Assembly: GCA_964016885.1 (NCBI GenBank)
Contig: OZ024747.1
Location: 53,878,001-53,942,000, forward strand
Length of the DNA: 64,000 nt
From: Eledone cirrhosa
Lineage: Eukaryota
Direction of reading: 5' to 3'
In this document: in pieces, positions 59,596 to 60,550 of the stretch
Layout: each line of letters starts with the position of its first letter
Numbering within the stretch: position 1 is the first letter of the stretch
Translations under genes and position numbers: made by a program
Notes under the pieces: model-generated
The model's database searches: none
The model's input: the letters and a program-made list of their open reading frames with translations, nothing else
Told to the model about the DNA's origin: nothing

Positions 59596-59675
<80 letters not shown>

Positions 59676-59938
59676 GTTACAAAACTCAGAGAAGTCTCTT
59701 ACAATTAAATAGCTCTAAGAAAAAAGCTTTTCCGAGCCGTGTAATATAATTGAATAAACAAGAGAGATCAACATACATGGGTTCGAATACACTAATATAA
59801 ACATACATGGGTTCGAATCGTAAAGACTAGGTTAGCTAGGGTGAAAAAATACTAACTACAGCAATATGGTTTGTCAGACTTAATTTTAAGTAGTAAATTA
59901 AGAAAAAATAACAGACCTATATCGGGCAATAGCCTGGT

Positions 59939-60020
59939 AACAACTAGACAGTTTTGAAAACTGTTTCGCAACATCTTATTAAGTGAAGTCAACACGTTGC
60001 TCTGCTCCTCAGTAGTTGTT
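59939..60020 (-). ncRNA. Type I hammerhead ribozyme motif
   Basis: AACAACTA CTGAGGA gca...tgc GAAA CAGTTT tca AAACTG TC TAGTTGTT; perfect 8-bp stem I, GUC site. Confidence 0.9.
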
Positions 60021-60237
60021 GAGAAATTAGCGATCCTTCCACTTCTAAAAATATTACAAGACTGAATTGTGTGCGATATGAAATAGCGCACGTGTCGGCT
60101 CCATCACGTGGAGCTAATTTTAATGTCTTGTGAACCAGACTGTTATTTTTAGCGACATGGAGACACGTGCGCTATTTCATATTGCACACAATTCAGTCTC
60201 CTAATATTTTTAGAAGTGGAGGGATCGCTAATTTCTC

Positions 60238-60319
60238 AACAGCTACTGAGGAGCCGAGAAACGTGTTGACTTCACTTAATAAGATGTTGCGAAACAGTTT
60301 TCAAAACTGTCTAGTTGTT
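60238..60319 (+). ncRNA. Type I hammerhead ribozyme motif
   Basis: AACAGCTA CTGAGGA (60246-60252) gc...gc GAAA (60291) CAGTTTTCAAAACTG TC TAGTTGTT; predicted cleavage after 60311. Confidence 0.9.
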
Positions 60320-60550
60320 ACCAGGCTATTGCCCGATATAGGTCTGTTATGCTACTTAAAATTAAGTCTGACAAACCATATTCTTGTAGTTAGTATTTTT
60401 TCACCCTAGCTAACCTAGTCCTTACGATTCGAACACACGTATGTTTATATTAGTGTTCATCTCTCTTGTTTATTCAATTATATATATATACATGTAAGTA
60501 TGTATGTATATATGTATGTACGTATGTATGTATGTATGTATGTATGTATG

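What the first reader, a model, noticed from the sequence alone, without database searches (positions are those of the whole stretch)
59671..60482. Largest foldback carries two near-canonical GUC hammerheads
Both motifs have an 8-bp stem I, a G-C closed stem II, a 7-bp stem III and a GUC site, making them the best candidates for activity. One arm has A-U and the other G.U at the same stem I position, so pairing is preserved. The arms of about 330 bp would form a long dsRNA. Coleoid cephalopods are known for extensive ADAR editing, so such inserts could seed editing sites or cut host pre-mRNA (inference).
Basis: partly seen in the sequence, partly recalled or inferred. Interest (0 to 1): 0.75.

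Follow-up and report, generated by a model that had tools for sequence, protein, structure and literature searches.

The report
Locked hammerheads in Penelope-type insertion
This hairpin is one decaying, back-to-back insertion of a short non-coding repeat that carries a hammerhead ribozyme motif; it was likely pasted in by a Penelope-type jumping gene's enzymes, and both ribozymes are predicted to be locked in the hairpin rather than cutting host RNA.

Summary
The motifs are real: two GUC type I hammerheads on opposite strands in arms of about 330 bp. They belong to a 508-nt non-coding repeat (98 near-exact hammerhead halves in the genome, control 0) with Penelope-like hallmarks: TA-repeat target, partial tandems, inverted 5'-truncated arm and a 74-nt tail on one side. 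Head-to-head insertions pair a short with a long end in 31 of 32 classifiable cases, which fits priming from both sides of a DNA break at two internal RNA sites (inferred). Stems covary between sister subfamilies, so the ancestor was probably a working ribozyme. This copy is not a best candidate: each arm has its own stem II mutation, the G.U pair is a private mutation, and on either strand the antisense arm is transcribed first and buries the ribozyme (over 100 kcal/mol). It would be an ADAR substrate only if transcribed, which is untested; the family shows no A>G excess. Extras: loop II pairs with the 5' flank, and catalytic A13 is a recurrent mutation hotspot (19 of 111). No helper element found. 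The scan has reported this kind of element and the two-end rule before on other DNA.

The parts
59602..59670 (.). (TA)n target repeat, left flank
   Evidence: sequence; nearly all family ends sit in TA runs
59671..60096 (-). Long arm: unit positions 100-508, ending at the long 3' end
59671..59744 (-). 74-nt tail between the short and long 3' ends, present on this side only
59767..59818 (.). Private 22-nt duplication in the long arm
   Evidence: (family D15)
59939..60020 (-). Type I hammerhead motif, core 60012-60006, cut after 59947; private A>C at 59999 shifts stem II register
60021..60044 (-). 5' flank that pairs with loop II; weakened in this arm (-10.6 kcal/mol, 52 of 300 shuffles as good)
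60093..60096 (.). Head-to-head junction with 4-nt microhomology shared by both arms
60093..60482 (+). Short arm: unit positions 6-433 with 25-nt and 12-nt deletions, ending at the short 3' end
60097..60161 (+). Centre of the foldback outside the long duplex (5' part of the unit, in the short arm only)
60214..60237 (+). 5' flank complementary to loop II (60256-60277): -18.6 kcal/mol, 2 of 300 shuffles as good; pseudoknot or off-switch
60238..60319 (+). Type I hammerhead motif, core 60246-60252, GAAA 60291-60294, cut after 60311; private A>C at 60255 leaves a 2-bp stem II; private A>G at 60242 gives the G.U pair
60483..60491 (.). TA run, right flank
   Evidence: sequence

Best explanation
The foldback is one decaying head-to-head insertion of a 508-nt non-coding hammerhead repeat, likely mobilised by a Penelope-like reverse transcriptase/endonuclease, and its two ribozymes are predicted to be locked in the duplex. 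Shown: dispersed family, TA targets, two fixed 3' ends 74 nt apart, one short and one long end per inverted insertion, copies longer than one unit, covarying stems. Inferred: the helper cuts both strands in a TA repeat; each end primes cDNA at one of two internal sites on an uncut multimeric or circular RNA; the two cDNAs stop at variable points and are joined through microhomology. Predicted: any read-through RNA makes the antisense arm first, so it forms about 330 bp of double strand (a possible ADAR or small-RNA substrate) and does not self-cleave. The ribozyme served the element's own RNA cycle, not the host.
For: Family: 56 scored matches from 1,950 first-look candidates; 98 near-exact hammerhead halves, control 0. 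Ends: two fixed 3' ends in TA. Of 100 family loci, 49 are head-to-head; 32 have both outer ends at a fixed site and 31 of these are short+long, 1 short+short, 0 long+long; the sister subfamily gives 20 of 20 classifiable, with the long end fixed by the query. 39 of 100 loci run across the unit junction; 24 of 30 arms chosen by a 3' query run 5' past the cut site. Arms of one insertion agree at subfamily sites (position 361: 11 of 11; 367: 9 of 10). Stems: 91.5% of cells paired, 7 of 19 pairs changed on both sides, 0 of 500 shuffles, slid controls 27-39%. Locking: 106-117 kcal/mol. Decay: the two arms differ at 14 sites, share no derived base, and are about as far apart as unrelated copies (median 17); 12 of 41 family motifs pass a full test. 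Literature: same layout for Penelope-like elements (PMC8557442, passages; PMC3846280, passages); two internal start sites define the tail and the protein cuts both strands (PMC11167929, parts 1-2 of 4); opposite-strand hammerhead pairs 100-700 bp apart in Schistosoma (PMC4209133, parts 1-2 of 4).
Against: No helper found: 120 loci from four Penelope-like protein queries carry no shared end with this unit apart from separate insertions, and 12 of 51 six-kb flanks hold Penelope-like protein fragments with no continuity seen (only L305 read in detail). The tail (74 nt) is longer than the 30-40 nt reported. 17 of 49 head-to-head loci could not be classified. Covariation rests on three or four related subfamilies, so on few independent events. 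No target-site duplication can be read in TA repeats. Folding energies ignore pseudoknots, proteins and kinetics. Circular against multimeric template is not resolved.
Confidence: 0.82

Rival explanations
1. Same element, but the inverted arm arises by snap-back or self-priming of one cDNA (or an antisense template), not by priming from both sides of a break.
For: Proposed for Penelope inverted repeats with palindromes at the junction (PMC3846280, passages). Some junctions here overlap by 11-24 nt (L003, L007, L009), and this junction lies beside a 6-nt palindrome.
Against: Snap-back copies one cDNA and should give two equal 3' ends or a random one; it does not by itself give short+long in 31 of 32. 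Many insertions have each arm longer than, or not nested in, the other around the junction.
Confidence: 0.2
2. The insertion has been co-opted by the host as an editing or RNA-cutting module in a transcript.
For: About 330 bp duplex with about 205 paired adenosines on either strand; repeats hold most A-to-I sites in animals (PMC9989829, passages); both cores and GUC sites are intact whereas only 21 of 41 family cores are.
Against: Ribozymes are buried; each has a private stem II mutation; the arms carry indels and ordinary decay; no host exon found in 148 frames scanned in the window and 40 kb downstream; no sense-strand A>G excess in the family (105 of 13,262 A against 172 of 18,304 T, p 0.18), which speaks only to editing before insertion.
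Confidence: 0.07
3. The unit is simply the end repeat (pLTR) of an autonomous Penelope-like element whose coding part was not sampled, not a separate non-coding replicon.
For: Truncated pLTR pairs are the commonest Penelope remnants (PMC4209133, PMC8557442); only four protein families were tried out of what is probably many.
Against: In 39 of 100 loci the sequence 5' of the unit start is the unit's own 3' end, never coding sequence; copies reach 1.7 units (L030); frames inside the unit match no Pfam family.
Confidence: 0.1

Closest known systems
Metazoan non-LTR retrozymes (Cervera and de la Pena 2020, PMC7229834, passages read; Li, Clavereau and Pollet, bioRxiv 10.64898/2026.07.22.740005, part 1 of 5 read)
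   Same: Non-coding AT-rich unit with a type I hammerhead, head-to-tail continuity, proposed Penelope-like helper.
   Different: Unit is 508 nt against 170-400; copies are mostly 0.3-1.7 units and often inverted rather than long arrays; stem III is a stable 7 bp and loop II about 30 nt; RNA circles and cleavage are not tested here.
Endonuclease-bearing Penelope-like element insertions (Craig et al. 2021, PMC8557442, passages and section 11; Arkhipova et al. 2013, PMC3846280, passages)
   Same: Partial tandem, inverted 5'-truncated arm head-to-head, tail at one end, TA-repeat target, hammerhead in the end repeat.
   Different: [quoted passage not shown]
PAc Poseidon element of Anolis in vitro (Frangieh et al. 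2024, PMC11167929, parts 1-2 of 4 read)
   Same: Two internal start sites bound the tail; AT-rich target; uncut RNA is the main template; ribozyme needs help to fold.
   Different: PAc is autonomous with a minimal hammerhead; here the helper is unknown and nothing is tested biochemically.
Pseudoknotted hammerheads (Perreault et al. 2011, PMC3088659, passages read)
   Same: Watson-Crick pairing between the stem II loop and a strand beyond stem I.
   Different: Here the complementarity runs to about 20 bp, too long to coexist fully with stem II (inference), so part of it may act as an off state.

Membership tests
Type I hammerhead ribozyme | Core CUGAnGA...GAAA...UH with three stems, stem I open | tested here: met
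   + arm stem II only 2 bp
Type I hammerhead ribozyme | Covarying stems across relatives | tested here: met
   7 of 19 pairs changed on both sides, 0 of 500 shuffles; few independent events
Type I hammerhead ribozyme | Match to an Rfam hammerhead model at gathering score | tested here: not met
   0 hits in the window; long loop II and stem III lie outside the models (inference)
Type I hammerhead ribozyme | Loop II to stem I tertiary contact | tested here: inconclusive
   pairing beats shuffles in 8 of 10 copies tried (2 or fewer of 300); only 2 of 9 pairs change on both sides (173 of 500 shuffles)
Type I hammerhead ribozyme | Self-cleavage | not testable with these tools
   needs in vitro assay; predicted off in the foldback
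Penelope-like element insertion | Partial tandem and inverted 5'-truncated copy, head-to-head | tested here: met
Penelope-like element insertion | Optional 3' tail at one end | tested here: met
   74 nt
Penelope-like element insertion | AT-rich or (TA)n target | tested here: met
Autonomous Penelope-like element | Reading frame with RT and GIY-YIG endonuclease | tested here: not met
   none in the unit or joined to it
Non-autonomous Penelope derivative | 3' end or ribozyme shared with an autonomous family | tested here: inconclusive
   not found in 120 loci of four families; other families not sampled
Non-LTR retrozyme | Head-to-tail repeats with a hammerhead in at least two consecutive units | tested here: inconclusive
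   not at this locus; a few family loci have two in direct order (L030, L304); no long array in 100 loci
Non-LTR retrozyme | Expressed as monomeric linear and circular RNA | not testable with these tools
   needs RNA data
ADAR-edited inverted repeat | Long near-perfect duplex | tested here: met
   329 pairs, longest helix 91
ADAR-edited inverted repeat | Transcribed and carrying A-to-G clusters in RNA | not testable with these tools
   needs RNA and DNA of one individual

The most novel reading that the evidence does not exclude
These insertions are a fossil record of Penelope chemistry: a dimeric enzyme primes from both ends of a TA break at two different internal sites (short+long in 31 of 32), copying a circular ribozyme RNA that is held off by a 20-bp loop II to 5'-flank duplex, and it misreads catalytic A13 again and again (19 of 111 copies, G>T>C, usually in one arm only), which would mark a modified or strained base in the template RNA.
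Probability: 0.25. Interest if true: 0.65.

Novelty: new member of a known kind. Interest (0 to 1): 0.3.

Why it matters
The locus itself is ordinary and probably inert. Its family gives countable rules for an open question, how Penelope-like elements make their inverted ends: one short and one long end per insertion is a direct prediction for the existing in vitro PAc system. The layout also explains why such ribozymes should be harmless in host transcripts while still supplying long double-stranded RNA. The A13 hotspot, if it reflects the RNA template, would be a base-level footprint of RNA state preserved in DNA.

Tried and rejected
Expression: no RNA holder listed; three contig sets of one sample, kind not on record, cover the family and the unique left flank but cannot show level, strand or editing. 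Rfam: 0 hits. Helper search: four protein queries, ends compared; each family has its own different hammerhead; only L138 reached Pfam GIY-YIG threshold with a weak RT hit, the other three of four had no relevant Pfam hit, so their Penelope label rests on recalled motifs and on PMC8557442 section 11. Host gene: 145 of 263 candidate frames plus 3 more scanned; only mobile-element domains passed threshold; the weak C1/PHD hit at 17337-17540 looks like a LINE C-terminal zinc finger (recalled), PDB E 0.009. Editing before insertion: no A>G strand excess in aggregate or per copy. 5' ends at the cut site: weak pile-up, p 0.03 and 0.02 on windows chosen after looking; only L207 and L104 start at or within one base of the cut, most others keep GUC: not accepted as proof of cleavage. 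A13 as a subfamily marker: rejected, 12 changes for 13 rows on the tree, like shuffles (tree support weak). A13 as general selection against active cores: rejected, other core adenosines 11 of 417. Earlier notes near this place or like this sequence: none.

Full report
Observation. The window holds two type I hammerhead motifs back to back: + 60238-60319 with C17 at 60311 and - 60020-59939 with C17 at 59947, each with an 8-bp stem I, 7-bp stem III and GUC. The arms align over 352 columns with 14 mismatches and 31 gap bases and fold into 329 pairs. Rfam finds nothing at gathering score and the isolated motifs are no more stable than shuffles, so the case rests on relatives. By score this is the window's strongest inverted repeat, though 28430-29842 has longer, partly simple-repeat arms.

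What it is. The arm sequence is a dispersed repeat: 56 scored matches from 1,950 first-look candidates, and 98 matches of the 31-nt 3' half of the ribozyme at up to 2 mismatches against 0 for the reversed control. Copies define a 508-nt unit with two fixed 3' ends, at 433 (short) and 508 (long), both running into TA repeats. This locus is unit 100-508 on the - strand joined to unit 6-433 on the + strand through a 4-nt microhomology at 60093-60096. A sister subfamily about 70% identical, with a piece at window 1175-1392, has the same build and a different hammerhead sequence. No frame in the unit matches Pfam.

Insertion rule. I pooled 100 distinct family loci (duplicates dropped). 49 are head-to-head; 32 have both outer ends at a fixed site, and 31 of these pair short with long, 1 short with short, none long with long; 17 have an end elsewhere and were left out. 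The sister subfamily gives 20 of 20 classifiable among 25 head-to-head, but its query fixed the long end. 39 of 100 loci run across the 508/1 junction, up to 1.7 units (L030), and 24 of 30 arms picked by a 3' query extend 5' beyond the cut site, so the template was mostly uncut multimer or circle. The two arms of one insertion agree at subfamily-diagnostic sites. An autonomous RT/GIY-YIG family in the same genome also shows two TA-anchored ends (10 long, 8 short of 18 readable among 30). The idea of testing short against long came from earlier notes of this scan.

The ribozyme. On 28 hand-picked motifs, mostly intact ones, the three stems pair in 91.5% of cells with 7 of 19 pairs changed on both sides, 0 of 500 shuffles, slid controls 27-39%; this reflects three or four subfamilies, not many events. 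Across the family the motif decays: 21 of 41 cores intact, 12 of 41 pass a full test, with about 3% divergence per site. At this locus each arm has its own damage: A>C at 60255 leaves the + motif a 2-bp stem II; A>C at 59999 gives the - motif a 7-bp off-register stem, 6.8 kcal/mol against the catalytic fold, the worst of 16 copies compared. The G.U pair is a private change in the + arm. The arms share no derived base and differ at 14 sites against a median of 17 between unrelated copies.

Why it should not cut host RNA. In a head-to-head pair the antisense arm is made before the ribozyme on both strands. The catalytic fold costs 112-117 kcal/mol in the whole foldback and 106-113 in transcripts stopped just after the motif. 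Only a transcript starting in the centre could free it. The duplex, with about 205 paired adenosines, would suit ADAR if transcribed (PMC9989829 passages), but no host exon was found in 148 frames and copies show no sense-strand A>G excess (p 0.18; none hyper-edited among 94 + 91 segments).

Two extras. First, loop II is complementary to the 30 nt 5' of stem I: -18.6 kcal/mol for the + arm, -18.5 to -24.7 in the sister subfamily, -20.3 in a third variant, at most 2 of 300 shuffles in 7 of 10 copies, 1 of 300 in one more at -11.9, 6 of 300 in L015, but not significant in this locus's - arm or in L027. Nine proximal pairs hold in 86% of cells (1 of 500 shuffles) with only two changed on both sides. 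The proximal part resembles known hammerhead pseudoknots (PMC3088659 passages); the full 20 bp would exclude stem II (inference), so it may be an off state. Second, catalytic A13 is changed in 19 of 111 segments (13 G, 4 T, 2 C) against 11 of 417 at the other core adenosines (Fisher p 2.5e-7), is scattered over the tree (12 changes for 13 rows), and differs between the two arms or units of one insertion in 6 of 7 cases (5 of 6 with edge filter). It ranks 9th of 137 adenosine sites, it was noticed after looking, other multi-allelic sites exist (195, 200, 265, 435), and the sister subfamily shows 1 of 20. A copying-error hotspot is the plain reading; a modified base is the bold one.

Helper. Four protein queries gave 120 loci; none shares an end with this unit. 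Penelope-like fragments lie within 3 kb in 12 of 51 flanks, with no continuity seen. The helper is inferred from anatomy only.

Comparison and novelty. It works like a non-autonomous Penelope derivative or animal retrozyme (PMC7229834 passages; bioRxiv 10.64898/2026.07.22.740005 part 1 of 5). The inverted layout, tail and TA target are published (PMC8557442 passages and section 11; PMC3846280 passages), as are opposite-strand hammerhead pairs (PMC4209133 parts 1-2) and two internal start sites (PMC11167929 parts 1-2). A search for 'hammerhead ribozyme' with 'octopus' listed four papers, none on this family by title or abstract; in a search with 'twin priming' the Penelope papers held that term 0 times; one search on modified-base footprints gave one unrelated review. 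Supplements were not read; those of PMC8557442 may list related families. This scan has already reported the same class, the two-end rule, locking and a long-stem pseudoknot on other DNA of this genome.

Verdict. Interest 0.3.

Noticed in passing
window 1098-1392: Truncated head-to-head copy of the sister subfamily; its 5' end lies about 3 nt before the ribozyme cut site.
   Followed up: yes
window 39748-40095: Second foldback with small hammerhead-like motifs on both strands (39994-40063 +, 39780-39853 -).
   Followed up: no
window 1585-1650: Hammerhead-like motif resembling those seen beside the Penelope-like family of 3513-4063.
   Followed up: partly
window 3217-4063 (-): Broken fragment of a Penelope-like element (linker and endonuclease, Hydra-like by recalled motifs); 48,332 first-look candidates in the genome.
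   Followed up: partly
window 28430-29842: Inverted repeat with 469-bp arms, partly (CAC/CAA)n, around TA repeats; no hammerhead core found by the relaxed scan.
   Followed up: partly
window 17337-17540 (-): Cys/His motif with weak C1/PHD hits; looks like a LINE C-terminal zinc finger (recalled), not a host exon.
   Followed up: partly
window 60628-61200 and 61376-61800: Two neighbouring copies of a very abundant repeat (contig depth far above the hammerhead family).
   Followed up: no
window 34861-35742: Tandem array with open frames in several phases and spurious-looking Pfam hits.
   Followed up: no
L207:1464 (oriented), L104: Copies whose 5' end falls at or within one base of the ribozyme cut site, L207 directly after the TA target.
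   Followed up: partly
L218: Arm that jumps from unit position 253 to 365, just after the cut site, through a short repeat.
   Followed up: no
family unit positions 195, 200, 230, 265-266, 435: Multi-allelic sites, several discordant between arms of one insertion; possible copying-error hotspots.
   Followed up: partly
L202:3884-6661: LINE with endonuclease and RT domains about 35 kb downstream of the window; transposase pieces at L200 and L202.
   Followed up: no
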